DNA of 64,000 nt from assembly GCA_020722765.1 (NCBI GenBank), contig DYKD01000001.1, forward strand, positions 2,025 to 66,024, written 5' to 3'. Of this stretch, positions 23,652 through 63,990 are shown in pieces. Position 1 is the stretch's first letter, and the number at the start of each line of letters is the position of its first letter. A model generated the notes under the pieces. It was not told where the DNA came from and made no database searches. It saw nothing but the letters and a program-made list of their open reading frames with translations. A program made the position numbers and the translations under genes. This DNA is from Brevinema andersonii (lineage in GTDB: Bacteria > Spirochaetota > DYKD01).

Positions 23652-25136
23652 ATGAGTAATTACAACATACTAGTCGTTGATGATGAAGAGATCATTCGGG
23701 ATCCGGTGAGCACACAGCTTCAGAAACATGGTTACACAGTCCAGACTGCTGTAGATTATGATGATGCCATAAAAAAACTGAATAAAAACTCCTTCGACCT
23801 TGTCATAACAGATATCAGCATGGCGGGTTCTGCCGTGACTACAGGTGGTAAAAGGGATACCCAAGGTATAGAAGTCCTACAATATTGTAAAAGAAATTTT
23901 CCAGATATCATAGTCATCCTTTTGACAGGAGTAGGCACGGCCCGACAAGCCATTGAATCCATACAAAAAGGCGCATACGACTATATCAACAAACCCTTTG
24001 ACAGTAAAAAACTTATCTTCACAATCAAGAAAGCGCTTGATGAAAGGGAAAAACTGAGAAATAGCTTTACCATACAGAATGTGGTGCAACGAAACCTTTC
24101 AGAAAACTTCGTATTTGCCAGTACGGAAATGCTAAAAATCCACGATCTCATTGAAAGAGTCGCTCCTTCAGATGCAGGTCCCATTCTCATACGAGGTGAG
24201 ACTGGAGTCGGAAAAGAGGTTGTAGCAAAAAGCATACATAACTTGAGCAAACGGAAAGATCAGCCTTTTTTGGAAATAAACTGTACAGCTATCCAGGAGA
24301 AACTCTTGGAAAACGAACTATTCGGACATGAAAAAGGATCTTTCACTGACGCCAAAGAGACAAAAAAGGGTCTTTTCGAAATTGCTTCTGATGGGACCCT
24401 GTTCCTTGACGAAATTGGTGATATCGATCTGAATGTACAAGCCAAGCTTCTCAAGGTCCTCGAATCAAAAACATTCTTCCGTATTGGTGGGACTCAACCA
24501 ATACAGACCAACACAAGGATCATTGTTGCAACAAATAAAAACCTTGAACAAGCAATCAAGGATAAAACATATCGCGAAGACCTTTACTATAGATTGAAAA
24601 TGATAAACCTGAATATCCCTCCCCTGAGGGAAAGGAAAGAAGACATCATCCCTCTGACCCTTTATTTTATGAAACAATTCAACAAGAGATTCGCAAAAAA
24701 TTTCCAGGATATACACGAACATGCATTACACATATTAAAAGAATATTCCTGGCCTGGCAATGTGAGGGAATTAAAGAATATGATCGAAAGGATCATCCTT
24801 CTTGAAGAGGACACCTCCATCAAAGTCCGGCATCTTCCTATGGAAATGTTCCATGACCTGTTTCCAGAAAAAAAAGAGTCTCCTTCGGAAGAATCAGACA
24901 TACCTGTACAATCACAATCACCAGCAGTAACAGATAAAACAACACCAGAAACAGTAATTATTGAAAAACAAGGGGACACAGAGACATTTGTCTCATTGGA
25001 AGAGATGCAGCGCCTTTATATGCTGAAAGTCCTCAAATCCACAAAAGGAAATAAGGTGAAAGCCGCGGAAATTCTTGGCATCCACAGAAAAACATTATGG
25101 GACAAGATCAGAAATGGTTCATCAGAAGCAAAATAA
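23652..25136 (+). CDS. Sigma-54-dependent response regulator (NtrC family: REC + AAA+ sigma-54 activator + Fis-type HTH)
   Basis: Receiver-domain Asp pocket (VVDDEE…LVITDISM). GETGVGKE Walker A. GSFTDA (GAFTGA variant). ESELFGHEKG region. C-terminal HTH (KAAEILGIHRKTLWDKI). Confidence 0.85.
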   Translation: MSNYNILVVDDEEIIRDPVSTQLQKHGYTVQTAVDYDDAIKKLNKNSFDLVITDISMAGSAVTTGGKRDTQGIEVLQYCKRNFPDIIVILLTGVGTARQAIESIQKGAYDYINKPFDSKKLIFTIKKALDEREKLRNSFTIQNVVQRNLSENFVFASTEMLKIHDLIERVAPSDAGPILIRGETGVGKEVVAKSIHNLSKRKDQPFLEINCTAIQEKLLENELFGHEKGSFTDAKETKKGLFEIASDGTLFLDEIGDIDLNVQAKLLKVLESKTFFRIGGTQPIQTNTRIIVATNKNLEQAIKDKTYREDLYYRLKMINLNIPPLRERKEDIIPLTLYFMKQFNKRFAKNFQDIHEHALHILKEYSWPGNVRELKNMIERIILLEEDTSIKVRHLPMEMFHDLFPEKKESPSEESDIPVQSQSPAVTDKTTPETVIIEKQGDTETFVSLEEMQRLYMLKVLKSTKGNKVKAAEILGIHRKTLWDKIRNGSSEAK

Positions 25137-26274: not shown

Positions 26275-26493
26275 CTATCCTGCTGCAATTACTTCTTGAG
26301 CCTTATCCACTTGATGTGGAAAAAGCGTTCCAGGGACTTTCTCTGATCCCAAGGCCACATTCACCATGTGACGCGCACAACTCATAAAATTACCATGGCA
26401 ATACTTTTTTTTCATCCCTTCTGCTACTGAAGGCATATTTGCCATCTTATCGTTAAAAAAAGGACATTTAGCTATACAATCACAATCAGCCAT
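26275..26493 (-). CDS. Small cysteine-rich protein (72 aa, 6 Cys), possible metal-binding
   Basis: The ORF is preceded by GGAGG 6 nt upstream. Cys pattern MADCDCIAKCP…YCHGNFMSCARH. No family recognised. Confidence 0.4.
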   Translation of the reverse strand: MADCDCIAKCPFFNDKMANMPSVAEGMKKKYCHGNFMSCARHMVNVALGSEKVPGTLFPHQVDKAQEVIAAG

Positions 26494-26630: not shown

Positions 26631-26662
26631 TATAACCAGCGGGTCATGACCCGCTGGTTATA
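26631..26662. repeat. 32-nt perfect palindrome TATAACCAGCGGGTCATGACCCGCTGGTTATA; its 22-nt core is repeated at 58115..58136
   Basis: Read directly from sequence. Lies 6 nt downstream of the maf stop. Confidence 0.8.
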
Positions 26663-30454: not shown

Positions 30455-32014
30455 ATGCCTGAAGCACCCATTCATGACAACAACACTGCAATTCCACACA
30501 ATACCGTTCCTCAACCAAAAGCCATCCGCTTTTCCCTAAAATGGCAGTTTACGGCAATTATCTCTCTGACGATTGCTGTCATCACATTCAGCATAAGCCA
30601 GATCATCTTTTCCCAACAGATAAAAGTCCTTACTGAGGACGTAAGGATTCAAGGTTATCTCATCGCAAAAAACCTGACTTCCATAGCGCAAGAAGCACTG
30701 ACAACATACGACGATCTCCCTATCTACAATGCCATATCAGACATAAAAAAAGAAAAATATATTGAAGCCGTTTTCCTTCTCAATCCAAAAGGGATTGTAT
30801 TAGCCCACTCAGACATCTATGAGAAAGGGAAAAAATACGACATCAAAACCTATTATGTAAACCAAAAAGACGGACAACTTGAACCAAACCTTGTCAAAAA
30901 CAAGGAGAACACGTTTTTTGATTTCGCCATGCCCGTCTATGCCTATTTTCCAACAAAAAAACTTCTAGCAAACGTGCATATCCTTATCAATAAGAAAATA
31001 ATTGATAGCAAACTGTCCCAAGCCAAGGCTATTGTATTCATACTTATTCTTATTTTCTTAGGTCTTGGAATTGCCAGTTCCTTTTTCATTGCGGATTTTA
31101 TCACACGACCCATCATGAAAATAGCGGATGGAGCAAAAATCATTGGGCAAGGGAATCTGGAACACAAGATTGACATCAAACGTGCAGATGAGTTGGGACT
31201 TTTGGCCAATCAATTCAACAAAATGACAGCAGAATTGACATTAGCCCAAGGTCGGTTGATCGAACAACAGCGTATGGAATACTCACTAAAAATCGCAACT
31301 GACATACAGAATTCACTTCTCCCCCAGACCTATCCTGAACTTCCAGGAATCTCTTTCGCTTCCTATTACAAATCCGCAAAAGAGATCGGTGGAGACTACT
31401 ACGACGTTTTTTCAATTGATGAGAACCGCGCAGGAATCGTCATCGCTGACGTTTCTGGAAAAGACGTTCCTGGAGCTATGGTCATGGTCATGGCACGCGC
31501 CATTATAAAGTCACAGGCCAATACAGGTTTGGACACACGGGAAACTCTTGTACGAACGAACCAGCAGCTCTATCAGGATATAAAACCTGGGATGTTCGTT
31601 TCTGCGTTCTATGGAATTTTTGATGTCCGTACAAAAAACCTTGAATACACGAATGCTGGGCATGACCCGCTGATTGTTTACAGGGCAGCTACAAAGACAA
31701 CTGAAAAATTCGGTGAACGTGAAGGCATGGCACTTGGTGCGAAAAAGAACAAGTTCTTCACTGAAAAAGTGGTAAAAAAATCATTGACTCTCAACAAGGG
31801 AGACATGATAGTCCTATACACGGATGGAATCCCTGAATCAATAAACGAGAAACGCGAGATGTATGATTTTGAAAGATTCCACGAAGTCATACGCCAGAAT
31901 GGCCACTTGCCAAATGAGGAGTTCATCAAAAAACTCATGGATTCAATACATTCCTTCATTGGTAATGCAGAACAATTTGACGACATAGCCATAACAACAC
32001 TCAAAGTCCTATAG
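30455..32014 (+). CDS. Membrane-bound PP2C-family Ser/Thr phosphatase (RsbU/SpoIIE-like) with periplasmic sensor domain and HAMP
   Basis: Two TM helices flank a ~140 aa sensor domain. HAMP-like segment (…ADGAKIIGQGNLEHKIDIKRADELGLLANQFNKMTAEL). PP2C motifs (GGDYYDVF, ADVSGKDVPGA, YTDG). Confidence 0.75.
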   Translation: MPEAPIHDNNTAIPHNTVPQPKAIRFSLKWQFTAIISLTIAVITFSISQIIFSQQIKVLTEDVRIQGYLIAKNLTSIAQEALTTYDDLPIYNAISDIKKEKYIEAVFLLNPKGIVLAHSDIYEKGKKYDIKTYYVNQKDGQLEPNLVKNKENTFFDFAMPVYAYFPTKKLLANVHILINKKIIDSKLSQAKAIVFILILIFLGLGIASSFFIADFITRPIMKIADGAKIIGQGNLEHKIDIKRADELGLLANQFNKMTAELTLAQGRLIEQQRMEYSLKIATDIQNSLLPQTYPELPGISFASYYKSAKEIGGDYYDVFSIDENRAGIVIADVSGKDVPGAMVMVMARAIIKSQANTGLDTRETLVRTNQQLYQDIKPGMFVSAFYGIFDVRTKNLEYTNAGHDPLIVYRAATKTTEKFGEREGMALGAKKNKFFTEKVVKKSLTLNKGDMIVLYTDGIPESINEKREMYDFERFHEVIRQNGHLPNEEFIKKLMDSIHSFIGNAEQFDDIAITTLKVL

Positions 32015-55993: not shown

Positions 55994-57319
55994 TCATTGA
56001 TCCTGAAAAATAAAAGAAAACGGATCTAACCATCCTTTAATCCCATCTTCTTTGGGTTGATAACCTTTGATCCATTGGATACGGTCGTTAAGAGTGTCCT
56101 TATCACGGACAATGCCATAAAACTTGTCTCCATGCTTTATCACAACCTTATCACTTTCAAAACCGACAATTTCTGCAGATACCTGGCCCTCCCCCATGTT
56201 TACGCGAGTGTGAAACCCTACCCTGAATTTAGGTTTTTGCCATCTGCCTTCAGCAATGGCAAAATGAAGATGAGAACCATATCCACCGTTTTCTGGCGAA
56301 TAGGACATTCCCGTAACACCGATGACATCTCCAATATTGACGTCTTGACCAGGTTTGACAAAAACAGTCTCTCCCAGATGCCCATAAATACTGCAGAAAT
56401 ATTCATTCGTCTTGGACCTATGCTCAATAAGGATCAGAGTCCCCCAATCCAAAGAAGAGATAACAAGACGAACCTTCCCTGCAGCTATGGCAAAGACAGG
56501 AGTGCCATCCCTGAACCAGGCGCAATCATCCCCTATATGGATATTTTCAGTGCCTACACCAAATGATTTTCTTGGCATTGCAAAAACGAGTTCCTTGTCG
56601 TAATCGAGAACCGGAGGCATTATATTGCTTGCCAAAACAGGTGGCGCATCCATAGGATCAAAAGCAGAATGAGTAAACCTGAACTTGTCAGCAGGTCTAC
56701 CACTCTTAAAAAAAACAGCTTCCCCTATTGATGATTTTACCTCTATCACCTGATTGAATTGTACTGATGGCGAGTTATTTTCAAAACGGTTCAATGCCCA
56801 TTGGAATTCTTTTTTTAACTGTGGATGAGCCTCTTTGTCCATATATGCTTGGATATCATCACGCATAAAGAATTGTGGCCGTAATCCGATCAACAGCAAA
56901 GCCTGTCCACGCACAGAGACATCTGAATGATCCAGTTGTTCCAAAACCAAATCGGCTGGAATATAAGCATCCCTATAATAAAGCAAACCATAAAGCGATT
57001 TGCAAATGACGAATGGATCTTTGGACTCAGCTAAAGCCCTTCCATAAATGGCAGGAATATTTGTATGAAAAAGACGAATCAATGTTTCTGGGGAATAAAG
57101 GAAAATATTTGAAAAAGCCGAATTCAGGATATCATCCCGTTGCTTTGTTGGCAATTCGTTTCCATAGGAAGTTGAAAGTTGTTCGTTCAGTTTTTTCATG
57201 ACAGCAGGAAACTGCGGGGTCCCACAAAAACCTGGCTTTGACTGGGCATTAAGAGATGTTGCTACAAAAAAAAGAAAACATAAAAAAAATGAAAAGGATC
57301 GTTTTCCCATCCAGATCAC
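55994..57319 (-). CDS. M23-family peptidase (LytM-like) with N-terminal uncharacterised domain
   Basis: Signal peptide. C-terminal HxH (GYGSHLHFAI) and upstream HxxxD-type region. Confidence 0.65.
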   Translation of the reverse strand: MIWMGKRSFSFFLCFLFFVATSLNAQSKPGFCGTPQFPAVMKKLNEQLSTSYGNELPTKQRDDILNSAFSNIFLYSPETLIRLFHTNIPAIYGRALAESKDPFVICKSLYGLLYYRDAYIPADLVLEQLDHSDVSVRGQALLLIGLRPQFFMRDDIQAYMDKEAHPQLKKEFQWALNRFENNSPSVQFNQVIEVKSSIGEAVFFKSGRPADKFRFTHSAFDPMDAPPVLASNIMPPVLDYDKELVFAMPRKSFGVGTENIHIGDDCAWFRDGTPVFAIAAGKVRLVISSLDWGTLILIEHRSKTNEYFCSIYGHLGETVFVKPGQDVNIGDVIGVTGMSYSPENGGYGSHLHFAIAEGRWQKPKFRVGFHTRVNMGEGQVSAEIVGFESDKVVIKHGDKFYGIVRDKDTLNDRIQWIKGYQPKEDGIKGWLDPFSFIFQDQ

Positions 57320-58032
57320 TCTCTCGCCATGAAGTGAGCTTTATCCTGCTTGTTAAACCTTTCTATGGCATACCGAAGCATGGTTCGTGGCATTCCCCTG
57401 TAATGCTTTTCCAGAAAATCCTTCACCTTCTTTTCAGAGACCCGCTTCCCTGCCTCCCTTAACATCCATCCAGTGGCCTTGTGTATGAGGTCCTGATCAT
57501 CATTCATAAGAAGTGAGGCAATCGCAAAAACATCCTCTGTCTCACCCTTCTTGATAAAAGTGAAAGTGGCCAAAATGGCTATACGTCGTTCCCACAACAA
57601 TTCTGATTTCGCCATCTTGTAAAGGATTTTACGTTCTTTATTAAGAAGATATTCACCAACAATGTTTGGAGCAGACAGATCAACAAGATCCCAGTTATTA
57701 ATATAACGGGCATGCGCGAGATAATCCTTATAAATCTGTTTCCGGAAGAATTCATCCTTGTGCCGTTCGAACTGTCTGACCATGATGAGCAAGGCAGTAA
57801 GCCTGTGTTCATGATAAGGACTTTTCAAAAGCAAAAGAATCTCTTTTCTGGGCAGATGGGAATATTCTGATACAAGACCCCGTTGGATTGGCACTTTTAT
57901 ACCAAGAAAAAGGTCTCCCTCGCCATACTGACCTTTTCCTGTCTTAAAAAAACCAGATAGTATATGTGCTTGTTTTGGATCCGCAAGAGAATCCATACGT
58001 TTTTTCAAATCTTGATAAGTTGGTATATTCAT
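57316..58032 (-). CDS. DNA alkylation repair protein (AlkC/AlkD HEAT-like repeat family)
   Basis: Length, WDLVD motif and helical-repeat pattern typical of AlkD-like glycosylases. Confidence 0.6.
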   Translation of the reverse strand: MNIPTYQDLKKRMDSLADPKQAHILSGFFKTGKGQYGEGDLFLGIKVPIQRGLVSEYSHLPRKEILLLLKSPYHEHRLTALLIMVRQFERHKDEFFRKQIYKDYLAHARYINNWDLVDLSAPNIVGEYLLNKERKILYKMAKSELLWERRIAILATFTFIKKGETEDVFAIASLLMNDDQDLIHKATGWMLREAGKRVSEKKVKDFLEKHYRGMPRTMLRYAIERFNKQDKAHFMARE

Positions 58033-58105
58033 AGAATTAATATATTGAAAAGCCTATGAAAAGTCAAAGGATGGAATTGTGTGAATAAAATGTCATCCCC
58101 TTCCA

Positions 58106-58144
58106 GTAGGGACGTCCGGTTTCTCCAGCGGGTCATGACCCGCT
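58106..58144. repeat. 39-nt near-perfect palindrome (two central-flank mismatches) containing the same 22-nt core as 26636..26657
   Basis: Read directly from sequence. Lies ~30 nt downstream of the giant-protein gene end. Confidence 0.8.
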
Positions 58145-58173
58145 GGAGAAACCGCTAAAGGACTCCGTTTCAA

Positions 58174-61100
58174 CTACTTCGCTAACAAGATTGTTCCTGT
58201 ATATTTGTTCTTGCCAGCACGAATCTGATAGATATAGATTCCACCTTGGACAGCATATCCATCCTTGTCATTTCCATCCCACCAGACTTGGACTGTATTT
58301 CCTGTTGAATCTATTTCCGTAATCTTCTTTATCAACTCTCCCTTGAGATTGAAGATGTTCACCTGGACATTCTCGTAACTGTCATCCAGACTGAAACTCA
58401 ATCTGAGAGAATTGAAAGAAGCATTTCTTGAATGAGGAGTAAAAGGATTGGGAGCTGCTGTCACATCATAAATGGCAGTACTTTCCGTAACCTCGGACGG
58501 CAAGATTACATAAGTACCACTCAAGTAATTGACAGTAGCAAAAAGTGTATTTCCTACACGCTTTCCGCCAATGCGCACCCATTTCTTGAGACCATCATCC
58601 CAGGCATAAATGGAGAGCTTGTTCACATCCCAGCCAAGGTTTACCACATTTGTCATATCTATGGCAAATGTGATTTCACCAGACTTCTTGAGCGCAACCC
58701 CATTGATCGTCTTGAAGCTGAGATCTTTTAGTTCCATCTTGAATACCTTGACACCTGACAGGTTATCAGCTTTGATAGAACTGTTATCCTTCAACTTTGC
58801 CAGCTGGTCAGAACTCATATCCCTCAGGTAAATATCCAGATAGAAGTCGCTGATGACAGTTTCACCTGGCACGCAGAAGTATGATTTCTGACCGTCATCA
58901 TAACAGTATCTGCATGCCCCAGTTGGTTCTGAAGCTCGCACTGCAGCATTCTTCATATAAACCTGCGTAATCTTGCTCACCTTATTATTGGTAATGTCAA
59001 GACCCTTCACATAATAGTCTGAAAGGAATTGTCCTTCCTCATCATAATACTTCACATTATACTTTCCTGCGGGAATATAGTCAATGACAAAATTGCCATT
59101 GGTATCAGATGATGTGAAAAGGACAGTACTGCCAAAAACACCAGTGACAGGCTGACCCGTGACAGTATCATACAATTTCACATTGATAGATTTTCCAGGA
59201 AGGACAGGGAAAACACTCCCGCGAACCTGTCCCCAAGGAGCCTCAACCAGTTTCAAGGTCTGGCTATTGGTGTTATACCGACCGAAATGGTTGGTCGTTC
59301 CATCCTTGAATTTTACGACACATGTCATGGCGGTCACAGAGACAAGGGATTGGGTGTAAGAGAAATTCATCTTAAGGACATCAAAATTCCCTTTACTGAG
59401 GGGCGTATTCGTGAGATAGGCTATCTTGATGAAATTCCTTCCATCCTGGCTCAATGTTGAAATTGTAACTCCTGATATTGTACTTGTCACATTGACATTC
59501 TTGTACTTGGAGAAATCAAAACCTATCAACGCCTCAACCACATCAAAAGCTGGAGATTTGTTAAATAGCTGATATTTGATTTCAGCAGAGTTGTTGATCG
59601 TATAGATGGTTGCATCATAAAGGTCTGCCTGATTATCCTGAACAATCGAGGGGGCAAAAACGGTCTTGCTCTCATAGATAATATCAAGAGTCGAATCTCC
59701 CAATTCGGAAGGAGACGAGAGGACTCCTGAAGTTGTGTTTCTCACCAGAGGAACAATGGGTAGGTTATAATACTCGTCATTGAGATTGAAATCTACGAGA
59801 TTCATCGTGATTTCACAAGACTGTCCTGCTGGAATAGGTGCAAAGGAATAATCGAGATAGATTGAAACATTTGTGCTTGAATTCGTAACAATCTGTAATG
59901 AGTTGTAGAGAGGACTAGAACTGACAGCAGCTGACAGGAATGGAACATATTGGCCATCAAGTGTCAGTTCAATCCTATAGATATTGTTAGCTCCCGTACC
60001 CTTATTCTGTACCTTGTACCGTATGGTTCTATCAACATTAGTGGGACTTGTGAAGATGAACGGTGTGAGTAATTCTGCACGGGCAAGAACAGGTGGATGC
60101 TGGATGTTTACCCTCTGTGCATTAGGCCCTGTATCATTGGCAACAATATCGTTCCTATTAAGGTTGAAATCCGCCTTAATGATCCAGTCAGCCACATAGT
60201 TAACAGGCAAAGCTGGAGCTCCTGAGGGATAGGCATCCTGAGCCATAAATGTTATCGTATCATTACCACCTGATGCAAAATCATAATTAGCTGCCTCATA
60301 ATCTACTATGATTTCAGTCCCATTGGTTGTAATAAAACCAGGCGCATGGAGACTTGTAATACTCCACATACCTGTAACACCCACAGCTACAGGAGGAATT
60401 ATCCTCGCTCGCATGATGGTATCACCGGCACTTCCCTCATTCTTGAGGAAATAGGTGAACTGGTTTGAAATATCTGAGGAATAGATTGTGTTAGGAGATA
60501 TTGAAGCTGCGGCTCTTGCACTCGACTTCAATATGTTCATATTCCTGCTACCAAAAGAGAGATCAGATGTAGAGACGTAACCGCCACCATTATCGACATA
60601 GGAGTTCCAAGGTATGATATTGGTACTATTCGTCCTTGAATGCCTGATAGTTATGGCAATGGTGTCAGACTCTCCTGGAGCGAGCATGTTGTCCGAATAA
60701 CTTACCGTTATCTTCCTGGTCAGGGCATTGTAACCTGCTGTAGCACCAGGTCTGGAGGAAAGAGCTGCATTGACTGGCATTCCATTAGTAAAAATATCAG
60801 GAACATCAATCTGGAATCCTGTTATGTAGTTCTTCCCACTACCAGTATTGACAAGATAGTTTGTCACAACCCTATTTGTTTCAAAGGTGAATATCGTGTT
60901 TGGAATCATAGACACACTTGCAGAAGCTGGTGGAAGTGCCAGTTTCAAAGCGAACGAATCTGATGGTGTGAGAAGCTCTGTCAGTTTGAAAGAAGGTGAG
61001 CCTGTATGCTGCATTGATACTATCCAATTATTGGATGCTGTCGTATTTGTCAAAGTATCAAATGCCTTGATTGTAATGGTGTCAGCACCACCACCCTGTG

Positions 61101-63990
61101 CAAGAGGAAGACCTGCTGTTCCATATTCGAAATCAAGATAGTTGCTTCCACGTGTGATGTTGCTGGTTCCAAGGACAGAACTGCTGTAAACCATTCCATT
61201 TGTAGTAATTTGTGGTAAAGGCAATACAACACGGATTTTTGCACCTGTACGTGAGGAAGACTGGTTTTTCACATAGACTGTAAAGTGATGATTAGTCTCA
61301 ATAGTTGAATATGCAACATTTGGAGTTACCTTACCAGCAGATGTCTGGTCTGGAACAACAACACTGACTGTCTGTTTCTTCCCTACAGGTATTGTTGAAG
61401 CCTGCATGTTGACTCCTGACATGTTATCAATCTGGCATGGCCAACTTCCTTCACCTGAGGCAGTATTTATATTATCAAACGCCTTAAAGCGTAGTGTTTC
61501 TGTTGTCTGTGCAGGGATGTAAGAAGTTTCATTGTAATAATTTATGTCAAAATATCCTGATCCTTTCACAATGCTCAAGTCATTTGTAAAGAAATTTCCT
61601 GAGATATTTGTGATAAGAATAAATCCGGCAGGATAGCTGATCCGGACCTTGTCAATGTTATCAGATCCGGTTCCCTTGTTACTGATTACATAAACAAATT
61701 CATTGGAGACCGAATCATAATCAATGACAACAGGTGTGATGTAGGCATCCGCACGAGCATTTGGCATTGAGAAAAGGATTTCTTTGGACTGCCCACTTGC
61801 TGTTATTGTCTCGGCATATCCGTTACCATCATCTACAAAACTGCTAAATGTAACATTCGTATTCCCCTTGATCCAGCTGTCAACTATCCTTATTGTAACT
61901 GTATCATTTTCAGTTGTCAGAAGAGGACTGCTACTATAATCTAGAGTCATGGAAGAGACACCGGAAAGCCTGATATCTGCAACATCATTGGCTATCTTGC
62001 TTGATGCATTTGAAAGGATACCCGTAACAACTCCTGGAAAGATGATAACAGCTTTCTGGACAGCTGCCTGCTTACCCTGGTTGATTATACGGTATGTTAA
62101 AGTGTTTGTTGATGTTGATGTATCAAGAGTGGACGGCGTCACAAAAGCATCTGAAGGGAGAACCGCATTCATCAACAAGCTACCGCTCGCACTGAGATAA
62201 GAGGTGAGCTCAAGGGGAGATGTGTTGTTCACTTCGCAACGGAGTGTGAGAGTTGTGATATTCGTTATTAGGTCCCCAAACCGCAAAGTTATTGTATCAA
62301 CATAGCCAGGAGGCAGGGATGTGCCGTCTGCAAGATAATTAAGGATAATCTCACCGGGATTGCAGGCAATATTGAGAGCATCGCTACTTATCTGAGAGCT
62401 GAAAACGTTTCCTCCACTAACACCAATCAAGGAGGTGGGATAGAGAATTCTTGCTGCAGTGATAGTATTGTCACCACTTCCCTTATTCGTTAATTTCATT
62501 GTGACTGTATTGCTGACTGAAGTAAGATAAAAATAGTTTCTGGATAAGGAAGCGGAAGCCACAGGAACAGCTCTCTGGATTTTGATCCACTGTTTCCCTG
62601 CATTTGTAGCAGCCTGGTAATAACCATCATTAACAAAATACTGCAAGGATATCGGCCAGAGAGACTGGTTGGAACCCTTGGATATATTATCCAAGGCCTT
62701 AAAAGAGACAGTATCTTGGGCTCCTGGAATCAAGTTGTTGGCAGTATAATCTATGATGATCTCATTACCGACAACAGATTTTGTAGCACCAGACCATGGG
62801 GTTGTTATTGAGTTTGTCACAACTGAATAGACACCTGATGGTATGGCAATCTTGACTCTCTTAATAGATAAACCAGATGCATTAGTGTTAAGTATTAAGA
62901 ATTGGAGCTGGTTCGTTATAGTGAAATCATTGATATATGAAGGAGAGGTAATATAAGCTTCAGGATTGTAAATAGCTGTCACCTTCCGGCTTAACCCTAT
63001 ACTTTCTGAAGCAGCAACCAGACCAAATCCGTTATTCACATAAGAGTACCAGACAATATCACTGACAGGAAAGCTGATATTACAATTGACATTGATCGTC
63101 ACTTCATCTGTCTCACCCGTTCCTAATAGGGATGCAGCATAGTTGACAAAAATCCTGCGTGTAGCGGGTGTATATCCGATGGTTGCACCAGGCCTTGCAG
63201 AAATGGCTGACCCTGATGTCATCCCGTTTGTAAATGCCTCAGGAACTTCTATCTCCATTCCTGTAATATAATTCTTTCCACTTCCTGTGTTTGTCACCTT
63301 ATAGGTGAACTGTTTGGTTGTCTCATAAGTGAACAACATGTTCGGTTTTATTGAGGCAGACGCGGATGCCGCAGGCATAGCCATCTTCAAGGCATACGAA
63401 TCCCCGGCTCCCTGTAATGTGGCTGTCACATAGACAGGTGAAATCTCATGTCTCATCTCAACAACCCAGTTGTTTGATGAGACCGTATTTGTCAATGTAT
63501 CGAAAATCCTGATGCTGACCGTATCATTGCCACCACTTGTTGCCAAGGGGACTCCGGCTCCTGCATAGTCGACCACAACATAGTTGCTTCCTCTTGTGAT
63601 GAATCCGGCTCCCACAACTCCGCTTGTCACCTGCATGCCATTTGTCTTCAGTTCGGGTTTGGGAATCGTAATCCTTATCTGGTTCACTTTTCTTGTTCCT
63701 GACTGGTTTACAACAGGAACGCTGAAATAATGATTTGTCTCCACTGTCGAATAAACAATATTAGGTGTTACTTTCGCTGTGGCTCTCAAATCAGGGCTTA
63801 CATTGGAGACCTCCTGTTTTTTCCCTACGGGGATCGCTGTTGCCTGCAGGTTGGCTCCTGAAATGTTGTCCACTTCAGCCAGCCAGTTTCCCACTCCCAC
63901 TGTACTGATGGAATCGAAAGCACGGAAACGCAATGTCTCTGTTGTCTGCGCAGGAATGTATGATGTTTCATTATAATAGTTGATATCCAC
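58174..63990 (-). CDS. Giant tandem-repeat surface protein (>1938 aa; 5' end outside window) with C-terminal Por-secretion/FlgD-Ig-like sorting domain
   Basis: Uninterrupted frame running to the window edge. Many ~100-130 aa β-rich modules with a recurring N(K/T)GSG.N.I motif. The last ~90 aa (AAPNPFTP…VNIFNLKGELI…WWDGNDKDG…GIYIYQI…K) match the T9SS type-A CTD / FlgD-Ig pattern. Confidence 0.7.
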   Translation of the reverse strand: MDINYYNETSYIPAQTTETLRFRAFDSISTVGVGNWLAEVDNISGANLQATAIPVGKKQEVSNVSPDLRATAKVTPNIVYSTVETNHYFSVPVVNQSGTRKVNQIRITIPKPELKTNGMQVTSGVVGAGFITRGSNYVVVDYAGAGVPLATSGGNDTVSIRIFDTLTNTVSSNNWVVEMRHEISPVYVTATLQGAGDSYALKMAMPAASASASIKPNMLFTYETTKQFTYKVTNTGSGKNYITGMEIEVPEAFTNGMTSGSAISARPGATIGYTPATRRIFVNYAASLLGTGETDEVTINVNCNISFPVSDIVWYSYVNNGFGLVAASESIGLSRKVTAIYNPEAYITSPSYINDFTITNQLQFLILNTNASGLSIKRVKIAIPSGVYSVVTNSITTPWSGATKSVVGNEIIIDYTANNLIPGAQDTVSFKALDNISKGSNQSLWPISLQYFVNDGYYQAATNAGKQWIKIQRAVPVASASLSRNYFYLTSVSNTVTMKLTNKGSGDNTITAARILYPTSLIGVSGGNVFSSQISSDALNIACNPGEIILNYLADGTSLPPGYVDTITLRFGDLITNITTLTLRCEVNNTSPLELTSYLSASGSLLMNAVLPSDAFVTPSTLDTSTSTNTLTYRIINQGKQAAVQKAVIIFPGVVTGILSNASSKIANDVADIRLSGVSSMTLDYSSSPLLTTENDTVTIRIVDSWIKGNTNVTFSSFVDDGNGYAETITASGQSKEILFSMPNARADAYITPVVIDYDSVSNEFVYVISNKGTGSDNIDKVRISYPAGFILITNISGNFFTNDLSIVKGSGYFDINYYNETSYIPAQTTETLRFKAFDNINTASGEGSWPCQIDNMSGVNMQASTIPVGKKQTVSVVVPDQTSAGKVTPNVAYSTIETNHHFTVYVKNQSSSRTGAKIRVVLPLPQITTNGMVYSSSVLGTSNITRGSNYLDFEYGTAGLPLAQGGGADTITIKAFDTLTNTTASNNWIVSMQHTGSPSFKLTELLTPSDSFALKLALPPASASVSMIPNTIFTFETNRVVTNYLVNTGSGKNYITGFQIDVPDIFTNGMPVNAALSSRPGATAGYNALTRKITVSYSDNMLAPGESDTIAITIRHSRTNSTNIIPWNSYVDNGGGYVSTSDLSFGSRNMNILKSSARAAASISPNTIYSSDISNQFTYFLKNEGSAGDTIMRARIIPPVAVGVTGMWSITSLHAPGFITTNGTEIIVDYEAANYDFASGGNDTITFMAQDAYPSGAPALPVNYVADWIIKADFNLNRNDIVANDTGPNAQRVNIQHPPVLARAELLTPFIFTSPTNVDRTIRYKVQNKGTGANNIYRIELTLDGQYVPFLSAAVSSSPLYNSLQIVTNSSTNVSIYLDYSFAPIPAGQSCEITMNLVDFNLNDEYYNLPIVPLVRNTTSGVLSSPSELGDSTLDIIYESKTVFAPSIVQDNQADLYDATIYTINNSAEIKYQLFNKSPAFDVVEALIGFDFSKYKNVNVTSTISGVTISTLSQDGRNFIKIAYLTNTPLSKGNFDVLKMNFSYTQSLVSVTAMTCVVKFKDGTTNHFGRYNTNSQTLKLVEAPWGQVRGSVFPVLPGKSINVKLYDTVTGQPVTGVFGSTVLFTSSDTNGNFVIDYIPAGKYNVKYYDEEGQFLSDYYVKGLDITNNKVSKITQVYMKNAAVRASEPTGACRYCYDDGQKSYFCVPGETVISDFYLDIYLRDMSSDQLAKLKDNSSIKADNLSGVKVFKMELKDLSFKTINGVALKKSGEITFAIDMTNVVNLGWDVNKLSIYAWDDGLKKWVRIGGKRVGNTLFATVNYLSGTYVILPSEVTESTAIYDVTAAPNPFTPHSRNASFNSLRLSFSLDDSYENVQVNIFNLKGELIKKITEIDSTGNTVQVWWDGNDKDGYAVQGGIYIYQIRAGKNKYTGTILLAK
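59070..63990 (-). repeat. Intragenic tandem duplication: two diverged ~2.4 kb super-modules inside the giant gene
   Basis: DNA at 61501-61560 parallels 63941-63990. Protein segments from 'YFDINYYNETSYIPAQTTETLRF' onward recur after ~820 aa with ~50-60% identity over the first ~450 aa. Confidence 0.55.

What the first reader, a model, noticed from the sequence alone, without database searches (positions are those of the whole stretch)
26631..26662. Perfect 32-nt palindrome downstream of maf sharing a 22-nt core with a second copy 31 kb away
CCAGCGGGTCATGACCCGCTGG occurs identically at 26636..26657 and 58115..58136. Each copy sits inside a longer palindrome with different flanks, and both lie just 3' of gene ends. 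Neither has a convincing U-tract on either strand, so they are not classic intrinsic terminators. The candidates are a REP-like or miniature inverted-repeat element, an RNA-stabilising hairpin, or an operator for a dimeric regulator centred on TCATGA.
Basis: seen in the sequence. Interest (0 to 1): 0.5.

Follow-up and report, generated by a model that had tools for sequence, protein, structure and literature searches.

The report
REP-type palindromic repeat after two genes
The two GC-rich perfect palindromes are real and are most likely copies of a small selfish hairpin repeat of the bacterial REP kind; the same 20-base core also turns up in unrelated uncultured bacteria, where it is often read through in frame inside essential genes.

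Summary
The 22-mer is at 26636-26657 and at 58125-58146, not 58115-58136. It lies inside perfect palindromes of 32 nt (26631-26662) and 38 nt (58117-58154). These sit 5 nt and 19 nt after the stop codons of two minus-strand genes.

It is not a private coincidence. The 20-nt core CAGCGGGTCATGACCCGCTG occurs at many non-homologous sites in rumen Bacteroidales MAGs and in a Peregrinibacteria MAG. Variants keep the palindrome through compensatory changes. At many Bacteroidales sites the core carries a GTAG tag. Intergenic copies lie a few bases after stop codons. Intragenic copies are in frame (T-A-G-H-D-P-L) in DnaX, DnaE, Pth and a restriction-methylase gene that carries a nested RAYT-like domain. 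These are the published hallmarks of REP elements.

Window copy 2 is flanked by GTAG-GGACGTCC-GGT, which matches a classical Bacteroidales REP. A relative of the window organism has a RAYT remnant just 3' of maf.

Verdict: a new member of a known kind (REP). It most likely spreads as a single-stranded DNA hairpin and is transcribed as a stable 3'-UTR hairpin. The genome-wide copy number and the transposase in the source genome could not be tested. The operator and classic-terminator readings are disfavoured.

The parts
26631..26662 (.). Copy 1: perfect 32-nt palindrome TATAA-CCAGCGGGTCATGACCCGCTGG-TTATA. It lies 5 nt 3' of the maf stop codon and 137 nt upstream of the next minus-strand gene (26275-26493).
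   Evidence: As RNA it folds into a 14-bp stem with a CAUG loop, -23 kcal/mol, z = -7.2. As single-stranded DNA it folds at -15.1 kcal/mol. There is no GTAG or CGTC tag; only GTAA, which contains the maf TAA stop codon, lies 5 nt away.
58117..58154 (.). Copy 2: perfect 38-nt palindrome CGGTTTCT-CCAGCGGGTCATGACCCGCTGG-AGAAACCG. It lies 19 nt 3' of the stop codon of the giant surface-protein gene and 84 nt upstream of the DNA-alkylation-repair gene (57316-58032).
   Evidence: As RNA it folds into a 17-bp stem with a CAUG loop, -33.3 kcal/mol, z = -9.4. As single-stranded DNA it folds at -21.9 kcal/mol.
58106..58117 (+). GTAG tag (58106-58109) followed by the 8-nt palindrome GGACGTCC (58110-58117). 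The CGTC at 58113-58116 abuts the long stem. Read as a degenerate neighbouring REP unit or tag.
   Evidence: The string GTAGGGACG-TCCGGT has the same tag, stem base and tail as the Bacteroidales REP GTAGGGACG[CATCGCATGCG]TCCGGT found 3' of rsgA. GTAGGGACG occurs only once in the window. A cruder flank-similarity test against the other loci gave p of about 0.02.
58094..58114 (-). Weak terminator-like hairpin CGUCCCUACUGGAAGGGGAUG with the tail ACAUUUUAU, 2 nt downstream of copy 2 on the transcribed strand. It is probably the resident terminator of the giant gene.
   Evidence: Found by the terminator scan and in the RNA fold.

Best explanation
Both palindromes are copies of a REP-type (repetitive extragenic palindrome) element.

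The unit is a GC-rich stem-loop built on the core CA-NN-GGG-K-CATG-M-CCC-NN-TG. In this genome the core is CCAGCGGGTCATGACCCGCTGG, with outer stems that differ between sites.

Inferred mechanism of spread: the element folds as a hairpin in single-stranded DNA and is copied or moved by an HUH/Y1 transposase of the RAYT type encoded elsewhere in the genome. It survives where it does little harm, that is, between a stop codon and the next signal or in permissive protein loops.

Inferred consequence in the window: each copy is transcribed as the 3' UTR of the htrA-maf operon and of the giant surface-protein gene. There it forms a very stable RNA hairpin with a CAUG loop. Such a hairpin would impede 3'-to-5' exonucleases and may pause RNA polymerase. 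It is not a canonical intrinsic terminator.

Shown here: the sequence, the structure, the positions, the family and its covariation, the tags, and the association with RAYT-like genes in other genomes. Inferred: mobility by a RAYT in this particular genome, and any effect on RNA.
For: 1. The 22-mer repeat is non-random.

2. The 20-nt core occurs at several non-homologous sites within each of two unrelated lineages. In the species-representative genomes it was found at 15 loci in rumen Bacteroidales/Bacteroidia MAGs and at 4 loci in one Peregrinibacteria MAG. The metagenome scan added about 28 more loci of the same two kinds. About one match is expected by chance for a 20-mer in 596 Gb.

3. A half-site search that does not presuppose palindromy found 17 distinct 20-mers. 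Nine are perfect palindromes and six have one mismatch. Positions 3, 4 and 8 change together with their partners.

4. Intergenic copies lie 2-30 nt after stop codons in all lineages, like the window's 5 and 19 nt. Di Nocera et al. report the same for REPs (PMC3733652).

5. Intragenic copies are always open in frame (T-A-G-H-D-P-L). They occur in DnaX, DnaE, Pth, a GATase and a restriction-methylase gene. Pth shows an insertion of about 25 aa relative to solved structures. REPs inside replication and repair genes are a published REP trait.

6. At about half of the Bacteroidales loci the core is preceded by GTAG plus 3 nt on both strands. One Peregrinibacteria site and one viral contig also carry GTAG.

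7. At the rsgA 3' site, one genome has this palindrome, while strains with 95% identical RsgA have a classical GTAG-REP array with a variable number of units. The two therefore occupy the same niche.

8. The window's copy-2 flank matches that REP's tag and stem base.

9. RAYT links exist. A RAYT-like Y1 domain carries the palindrome in its own loop: NCBIfam REP_Tyr_transpos E = 4e-14, with HUH motif 'DHMH' and tyrosine motif 'YIRTNREHH'. This parallels the REP insertions inside tnpAREP genes described in PMC6006769. Separately, a RAYT C-terminal remnant (E = 1.3e-4) lies directly 3' of maf in a relative whose Maf is 69% identical.

10. In L053, tandem units with identical flanks of 22 and 13 nt carry cores that differ at three compensated pairs. 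This suggests the core is exchanged as a cassette.
Against: Only two copies are seen in 64 kb, and the copy number in the source genome is unknown.

No RAYT gene was found in the window by tblastn.

Copy 1 has no GTAG or CGTC tag. In copy 2 the GTAG is 7 nt from the stem rather than abutting it.

The units are perfect palindromes with 14-17 bp stems. Published REPs are mostly imperfect, with 6-13 bp stems.

No filled-versus-empty pair of closely related sites was obtained for either window copy. The only near relatives are either the same strain (99.99% identical) or too diverged.

About 25 kb from relatives whose Maf is 63-66% identical contains no family member.

The other-genome loci were retrieved by exact match to the core, so their sharing the core is true by construction.
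Confidence: 0.65

Rival explanations
1. The palindromes are dedicated RNA elements of the two transcripts, that is, 3'-end stabilisers or U-tract-independent terminators or pause sites. On this reading they were selected in place, and the shared 22-mer reflects duplication or convergence rather than a mobile family.
For: Both lie immediately 3' of ORFs on the transcribed strand. The RNA hairpins are very stable, at -23 and -33.3 kcal/mol. The outer stems are site-specific yet perfectly paired. REPs are known to have such RNA effects (PMC3733652), so this reading partly overlaps with the best explanation.
Against: The organism uses canonical hairpin-plus-U-tract terminators elsewhere, for example 20066-20040 on the minus strand. 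Copy 2 already has a terminator-like hairpin 2 nt downstream. The identical core recurs inside coding regions and after stop codons in unrelated phyla, with GTAG tags. A locally evolved terminator does not explain that.
Confidence: 0.15
2. The elements belong to a hairpin family that spreads or grows by a route other than a RAYT. One such route is insertion into pre-existing hairpin apices. Another is template-switch 'palindrome growth' with gene conversion between copies. A third is mobilisation by a different enzyme, possibly carried between hosts by phages.
For: The outer stems are site-specific but palindromic in the window and at several Bacteroidales sites. The L053 units have different cores between identical flanks. 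Flanking direct repeats vary in length from 8 to 16 nt, which is unlike Y1 transposition. The 'filled' and 'empty' alleles of the restriction-methylase site look like replacement rather than clean insertion. GGGGCATGCCCC-type perfect palindromes are enriched in viral contigs: 8 of 26 pattern matches are perfect, against about 1 expected. CGTC-tagged REPs are also reported to have no known transposase.
Against: There is no direct evidence for any alternative enzyme. The GTAG tags and the association with RAYT-like domains point to the standard route. The exact 20-mer is absent from the viral collection.
Confidence: 0.13
3. The palindrome is an operator or enhancer site for a dimeric DNA-binding regulator, centred on TCATGA, that controls the downstream operons (72-aa protein/NUDIX/CxxCxxCC, and DNA_alkylation/M23/QueF).
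For: The dyad symmetry is perfect. Both copies lie about 50-80 nt upstream of sigma-70-like hexamers of the next gene. A sigma-54 activator gene (23652-25136) lies 1.1 kb from copy 1.
Against: I found no GG-N10-GC sigma-54 promoter downstream of either copy when reading the sequence. The 32-38 bp of symmetry exceeds a normal operator. The same core lies inside ORFs of DnaX, DnaE and Pth in other phyla. The two downstream operons share no evident function.
Confidence: 0.04

Closest known systems
GTAG-tagged REP / BIME elements and their RAYT (TnpA_REP) transposases, as known from E. coli, Pseudomonas and Stenotrophomonas and classified by Di Nocera et al. 2013 (PMC3733652) and Quentin et al. 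2018 (PMC6006769)
   Same: A short GC-rich stem-loop repeat. Family variants keep pairing through compensatory changes. Copies lie within about 20 nt of ORF 3' ends. In-frame intragenic copies occur in replication genes. In the Bacteroidales, Peregrinibacteria and viral members a GTAG tag is present and sometimes supplies the stop codon. Copies occur inside RAYT-like genes. Families are shared between distant taxa.
   Different: The stems are perfect and longer (10 pairs in the core, 14-17 in the window) and are centred on CATG with no bulge. Published REPs mostly have imperfect 6-13 bp stems. Window copy 1 has no tag. The copy number here is unknown and looks low. The 20-nt core is 100% identical across at least three distant lineages, whereas REP-RAYT systems are usually described as vertically inherited and lineage-specific. 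The Y1 domain seen with the palindrome resembles subclass 1.2, which was reported to have no REPs.
Rickettsia palindromic elements (RPE; RPE-4 and RPE-6 are CGTC REPs) and similar in-frame selfish palindromes
   Same: Palindromic repeats that are tolerated in frame inside essential genes, including dnaE, where they add a short peptide to surface loops.
   Different: RPE-1 is much longer (about 100-150 nt). RPEs are confined to Rickettsia. In the window itself both copies are extragenic.
Rho-independent (intrinsic) terminators
   Same: A GC-rich hairpin immediately after a stop codon on the transcribed strand.
   Different: There is no U-tract after either palindrome. The stem is much longer than usual. 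The sequence is repeated verbatim at two unrelated genes and in other phyla. Canonical terminators exist elsewhere in the window.
[quoted passage not shown]
   Same: Small, non-autonomous and repeated, with inverted symmetry.
   Different: There is no internal body between terminal inverted repeats and no consistent target-site duplication. The total length of 32-38 nt is far below typical MITEs.

Membership tests
REP (repetitive extragenic palindrome), GTAG/CGTC-tagged superfamilies | A 20-40 bp unit that folds into a GC-rich stem-loop | tested here: met
   The palindromes are 32 and 38 nt long. As single-stranded DNA they fold at -15.1 and -21.9 kcal/mol, and as RNA at -23 and -33.3 kcal/mol. 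The stems are longer and more perfect than in published families.
REP (repetitive extragenic palindrome), GTAG/CGTC-tagged superfamilies | An unpaired GTAG (or CGTC) tetranucleotide at one end of the stem | tested here: inconclusive
   In copy 2, CGTC (58113-58116) abuts the stem and GTAG (58106-58109) lies 7 nt upstream. Copy 1 has neither, only GTAA. In other genomes the same core carries GTAG plus 0-3 nt at many sites.
REP (repetitive extragenic palindrome), GTAG/CGTC-tagged superfamilies | Many dispersed copies per genome | not testable with these tools
   There are two copies in 64 kb. The rest of the source genome could not be fetched. The source sample is absent from the scanned metagenome collection, and the species gave no hit in the genome collection. 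In other lineages the core sits at 4 or more (Peregrinibacteria) and 10 or more (Bacteroidales) distinct sites.
REP (repetitive extragenic palindrome), GTAG/CGTC-tagged superfamilies | Position: intergenic, close to the 3' end of the upstream ORF, between unidirectional or convergent genes | tested here: met
   The copies lie 5 and 19 nt after stop codons, and both lie between genes on the same strand. Other-lineage copies lie 2-30 nt after stop codons.
REP (repetitive extragenic palindrome), GTAG/CGTC-tagged superfamilies | Sub-families whose stems differ by complementary changes | tested here: met
   The half-site search gave 9 perfectly palindromic variants and 6 with one mismatch. The covariation score was 0.458, against 0.144 for shuffles. 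That alignment was partly selected for palindromy. All the variants come from other genomes, not from the window.
REP-RAYT system (REPtron) | A cognate single-copy RAYT (HUH plus catalytic Tyr, YIxxNP) in the same genome, usually flanked by the REPs | not testable with these tools
   None was found in the 64-kb window. A RAYT remnant lies 3' of maf in a relative, L062. A RAYT-like domain carrying the palindrome occurs in Bacteroidales.
Intrinsic terminator | A hairpin followed directly by a U-rich tract on the transcribed strand | tested here: not met
   The minus-strand tails are AAAAAUAUACC (copy 1) and GACGUCCCUACU (copy 2). The terminator scan did not report either palindrome.
MITE | Terminal inverted repeats flanking an internal sequence, with a fixed-length target-site duplication | tested here: not met
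   The arms abut with no body between them. Flanking direct repeats are absent for copy 2, ambiguous for copy 1 (TATA is itself a palindrome), and of variable length elsewhere.

The most novel reading that the evidence does not exclude
One REP stem-loop, a 20-nt CATG-centred perfect palindrome, has spread horizontally between at least three very distant lineages: rumen Bacteroidales, a CPR Peregrinibacteria, and the deep-branching bioreactor organism of this window. Related forms occur on phage contigs. The stem-loop is exchanged as a cassette between fixed flanks. It is tolerated in frame, always as T-A-G-H-D-P-L, in essential genes. This would run against the current picture of REP-RAYT systems as lineage-specific and vertically inherited, and it would point to a very small unit of mobility.
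Probability: 0.3. Interest if true: 0.6.

Novelty: new member of a known kind. Interest (0 to 1): 0.35.

Why it matters
For this window, the finding explains two odd hairpins as ordinary selfish or semi-domesticated repeats. They should not be annotated as operators or terminators.

More broadly, the family appears not to have been described. There is no Rfam match, and the literature searches found nothing specific. It has three unusual properties for a REP:

- The stems are perfect.
- The core is identical across phyla, including a CPR genome.
- The reading frame is consistent when the element sits inside essential genes.

If the cross-phylum identity reflects recent horizontal spread, the family would be a convenient natural system for studying how REP/RAYT pairs move between hosts and how hairpin insertions are tolerated in proteins.

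There is also a practical point. These palindromes break short-read assemblies: the Logan contig L023 ends inside copy 1. They also attract consensus errors or mutations: the single difference in 20.5 kb between two assemblies of this strain lies inside copy 1.

Tried and rejected
- **Rfam and tRNA scans.** Rfam at gathering thresholds over the whole window gave no hit. ARAGORN found no tRNA or tmRNA.
- **RAYT in the window.** tblastn of the Bacteroidales Y1 domain and of the L062 RAYT remnant against the window found nothing. Weak 'RAYT' hits in L017, L028, L030 and L049 came only from the palindrome-encoded peptide and were discarded.
- **Empty-site test for the window copies.** Near relatives are the same strain (99.99% identical). 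The next relatives (Maf 63-69% identical) have unalignable intergenic DNA.
- **Flank-homology test.** Only the copy-2 left flank stands out, at p of about 0.02 before correction for four tests. It became convincing only after the rsgA REP was found independently.
- **Sigma-54 enhancer idea.** I saw no -24/-12 promoter downstream of either copy when reading the sequence.
- **Viral, plasmid and phage searches.** The viral scan with the exact core found 0 hits. BLAST of copy 2 against plasmids and phages gave only chance-level matches (E of 1 or more). These included a 19-nt match in a Bacteroides phage primase gene that encodes AGDPLEKPG.
- **Third partial copy at 31657-31672.** This is the conserved N-A-G-H-D-P-L motif of a SpoIIE/PP2C phosphatase. 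It is also present in the ortholog in L065. I judged it an ancestral coding sequence, not a family member.
- **High-GC hits.** The hits in Sphingobium and in soil contigs are coding coincidences (AGHDPL or QRVMTR frames) and were excluded.
- **Literature.** A search for the core sequence returned only irrelevant eukaryotic papers.

Full report
**Observation**

The 22-mer CCAGCGGGTCATGACCCGCTGG occurs twice in the window, at 26636-26657 and 58125-58146. No further match appears with up to three mismatches, and none appeared in 100 shuffles.

Copy 1 lies in a perfect 32-nt palindrome (26631-26662). Copy 2 lies in a perfect 38-nt palindrome (58117-58154). No other long GC-rich perfect palindrome exists in the 64 kb.

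All flanking genes are on the minus strand.

- Copy 1 is 5 nt after the maf stop codon and 137 nt before a 72-aa Cys-rich ORF.
- Copy 2 is 19 nt after the stop codon of a giant FlgD_ig/CHU_C surface protein and 84 nt before a DNA_alkylation gene.

Neither palindrome has a U-tract. Copy 2 is followed 2 nt later, on the transcribed strand, by a weak hairpin with the tail ACAUUUUAU. A textbook terminator exists elsewhere in the window, at 20066-20040 on the minus strand.

The RNA hairpins have 14-bp and 17-bp stems with a CAUG loop. They fold at -23 and -33.3 kcal/mol.

**Source organism**

The window is 99.99% identical to contig CCWRTO010000001.1 of the NCBI MAG GCA_973314595.1. It also matches a contig from JGI sample 3300000227, record TB_AS07_7.

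The nearest named TyrRS homologues are only 52-57% identical. The organism is therefore a deep, uncultured lineage and is neither Bacteroidales nor Peregrinibacteria.

Two small observations came out of the assembly comparison. The single mismatch in 20.5 kb between the window and L022 lies inside copy 1. A Logan contig of the same strain ends inside copy 1.

**The core is a family found elsewhere**

I scanned one genome per species (596 Gb) with the 20-mer CAGCGGGTCATGACCCGCTG. About one match is expected by chance. The scan found 20 loci:

- 15 in rumen Bacteroidales/Bacteroidia MAGs.
- 4 in one Peregrinibacteria MAG.
- 1 in a Sphingobium esterase, which is a coding coincidence.

The metagenome scan added 34 loci. 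Most belong to the same two kinds, and six are high-GC coding coincidences.

These loci share the core by construction, because that is how they were retrieved. The informative results are what else they show.

1. *Multiple non-homologous sites.* Within each lineage the core sits at several unrelated sites.

2. *In-frame intragenic copies.* Most copies lie inside long ORFs, always in the frame that reads T-A-G-H-D-P-L. The host genes are:
   - the DnaX linker;
   - DnaE;
   - Pth;
   - a GATase;
   - an MmeI/Eco57I-type restriction-methylase gene, at three sites.

   Pth shows an insertion of about 25 aa, containing two units, relative to solved Pth structures.

3. *Compensatory variants.* A search for the right half-site only (CATGNCCCNNTG) returned 17 distinct 20-mers. 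Nine are perfect palindromes and six have one mismatch. Positions 3, 4 and 8 always change together with their partners (formal counts, on an alignment partly selected for palindromy).

4. *Positions of intergenic copies.* They lie 2-30 nt after stop codons.

5. *GTAG tags.* At about half of the Bacteroidales loci the core is preceded on both strands by GTAG plus 3 nt. One Peregrinibacteria site and one viral contig also have GTAG abutting the stem. The same loci hold other GTAG-tagged hairpins with different stems.

**Comparison with the literature**

Di Nocera et al. (PMC3733652) define REPs as 20-40 bp stem-loops tagged by GTAG or CGTC. They report that:

- sub-families differ by complementary stem changes;
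- REPs lie mostly less than 20 bp from ORF 3' ends;
- the GTAG sometimes supplies the TAG stop codon;
- REPs occur in frame within replication and repair genes, including dnaE;
- some families are shared between distant taxa.

Quentin et al. (PMC6006769) describe REP insertions within tnpAREP genes, and a Bacteroidetes/Cyanobacteria Y1 subclass with the motifs DH[IV]H and YIKNQKEHH.

The Bacteroidales restriction-methylase gene carries, nested in frame before its GNPPY motif, a Y1 domain with DHMH and YIRTNREHH. This domain matches NCBIfam REP_Tyr_transpos at E = 4e-14. Its loop is a hypervariable array, (PVGTTAVA)n-TAGHDPL-(TLPDA)n, built from the palindrome and its GTAG-bearing arms.

**A niche test**

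In one Bacteroidales genome (L020) the palindrome sits 2 nt after the rsgA stop codon. In ten contigs whose RsgA is 95% identical, the same spot holds a classical REP array: TTGTAG|GGACGCATCGCATGCGTCC|GGT plus two or three further units. The TAG of the tag is the rsgA stop codon, and the number of units varies between strains. The palindrome and a textbook REP are therefore interchangeable occupants of one site.

**Back to the window**

The left flank of copy 2 reads GTAG-GGACGTCC-GGT (58106-58120). This is the same tag, stem base and tail as that REP, with the apex missing. GTAGGGACG occurs once in the window. CGTC (58113-58116) abuts the long stem.

Copy 1 has no tag. It has only GTAA, which contains the maf stop codon.

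In a relative whose Maf is 69% identical (L062), the DNA directly 3' of maf encodes the C-terminal remnant of a RAYT, FHQRNYNEHIVRDEHDLNRIRKYIQRNPQNW (NF047646, E = 1.3e-4). So the lineage has had RAYT-type genes, and at this very locus. No RAYT is present in the window itself.

**Interpretation**

The best-supported reading is that both palindromes are REP-type elements of a family that has not been described. I infer that they spread as single-stranded DNA hairpins through an HUH/Y1 (RAYT-like) enzyme. I also infer that they are retained where they are harmless, and that they are transcribed as very stable 3'-UTR hairpins that may protect or pause the transcript.

Not shown:

- the copy number in the source genome;
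- a cognate transposase in the source genome;
- filled-versus-empty sites for the two window copies;
- any effect on RNA.

Several features are unexplained by simple RAYT transposition, and they keep a non-RAYT or template-switch mechanism alive as a rival:

- The outer stems are site-specific yet perfectly paired.
- Flanking direct repeats vary in length.
- In L053, tandem units have identical flanks but cores that differ at three compensated pairs.
- At restriction-methylase site 1, the alleles look like replacement rather than clean insertion.

The operator reading is disfavoured by the length of the sites, their position, and the coding-region copies in other phyla. The classic-terminator reading is disfavoured by the missing U-tract and by the separate terminator-like hairpin after copy 2.

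**Novelty and score**

This is a new member of a known kind. Three things are unusual for a REP:

- the stems are perfect, long and centred on CATG;
- the 20-nt core is 100% identical across at least three distant lineages, including a CPR genome, with related GGGGCATGCCCC forms enriched as perfect palindromes in viral contigs (8 of 26 pattern matches, against about 1 expected);
- the reading frame of intragenic copies is constant.

These features make it moderately interesting for people who study REP/RAYT biology. The window's two copies themselves are ordinary.

Noticed in passing
window 31657-31672 (inside ORF 30455-32014, +): The HAMP-SpoIIE/PP2C phosphatase gene encodes its conserved motif N-A-G-H-D-P-L as AAT GCT GGG CAT GAC CCG CTG. 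Twelve of these bases are identical to the right arm of the palindrome, and the frame is the one in which the palindrome is read inside genes of other phyla. These codons are rare in this genome: P(CAT GAC CCG CTG | HDPL) is about 0.004. The ortholog in L065 has GCA GGT CAT GAC CCA CTG, so the motif is probably ancestral. Whether the REP core and this motif are related is unexplained.
   Followed up: partly
window 26651 vs L022 10590; L023 end: The only mismatch in 20,564 aligned bases between the window and the NCBI MAG of the same strain lies inside palindrome 1 (GACCCG versus GACTCG). A Logan contig of the strain ends inside the same palindrome. The hairpin is therefore a hot spot either for mutation or for assembly and consensus errors.
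   Followed up: partly
L002 1927-6198 (also L001, L006, L011, L027, L033, L037, L038, L041, L047, L052-L054, L057): Rumen Bacteroidales carry a 1200-1400-aa MmeI/Eco57I-type restriction-methylase ORF. A RAYT-like Y1 (HUH) domain is nested in frame between methylase motif I and the GNPPY motif. Up to three REP palindromes are read through as peptide. The loop of the Y1 domain is hypervariable between close relatives.
   Followed up: partly
L062 about 1390-1510 (GCA_036170155.1, downstream of maf): A truncated REP-associated tyrosine transposase remnant (…FHQRNYNEHIVRDEHDLNRIRKYIQRNPQNW…) lies directly 3' of maf in a relative of the window organism. This is the position where the window has palindrome 1.
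   Followed up: partly
L091-L100 about 2436-2540, versus L020 5596-5660: The spacer between rsgA and the NAD kinase gene in rumen Bacteroidales holds a classical GTAG-REP array (unit GACGCATCGCATGCGTCC) whose TAG is the rsgA stop codon. The array has 3 or 4 units depending on the strain. A genome whose RsgA is 95% identical has the CAGCGGGTCATGACCCGCTG palindrome there instead, flanked by a 9-nt direct repeat, AGGATAGAA.
   Followed up: yes
L053 1289-1400: Two tandem units have identical flanks of 22 nt and 13 nt. Their cores differ at three compensated pairs: CAAGGGGGCATGCCCCCTTG versus CAGCGGGTCATGACCCGCTG. It looks as if the hairpin core were swapped as a cassette.
   Followed up: no
window 58155-58173 plus copy 2, minus strand: After the TAG stop codon of the giant gene, the frame stays open for 26 codons and reads the palindrome as …SPAGHDPLEKPD…. 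This is the same AGHDPL frame as the intragenic copies elsewhere. A Bacteroides phage primase gene (MT635598.1) encodes KAGDPLEKPG with a 19-nt identity to this stretch. The BLAST E-value is about 2, so this is probably chance.
   Followed up: partly
window 58174-63990 and beyond (L061 1-9859): The gene upstream of copy 2 encodes a 4175-aa surface protein with long internal near-duplications and a FlgD_ig/CHU_C (type IX secretion-like) C-terminal domain.
   Followed up: no
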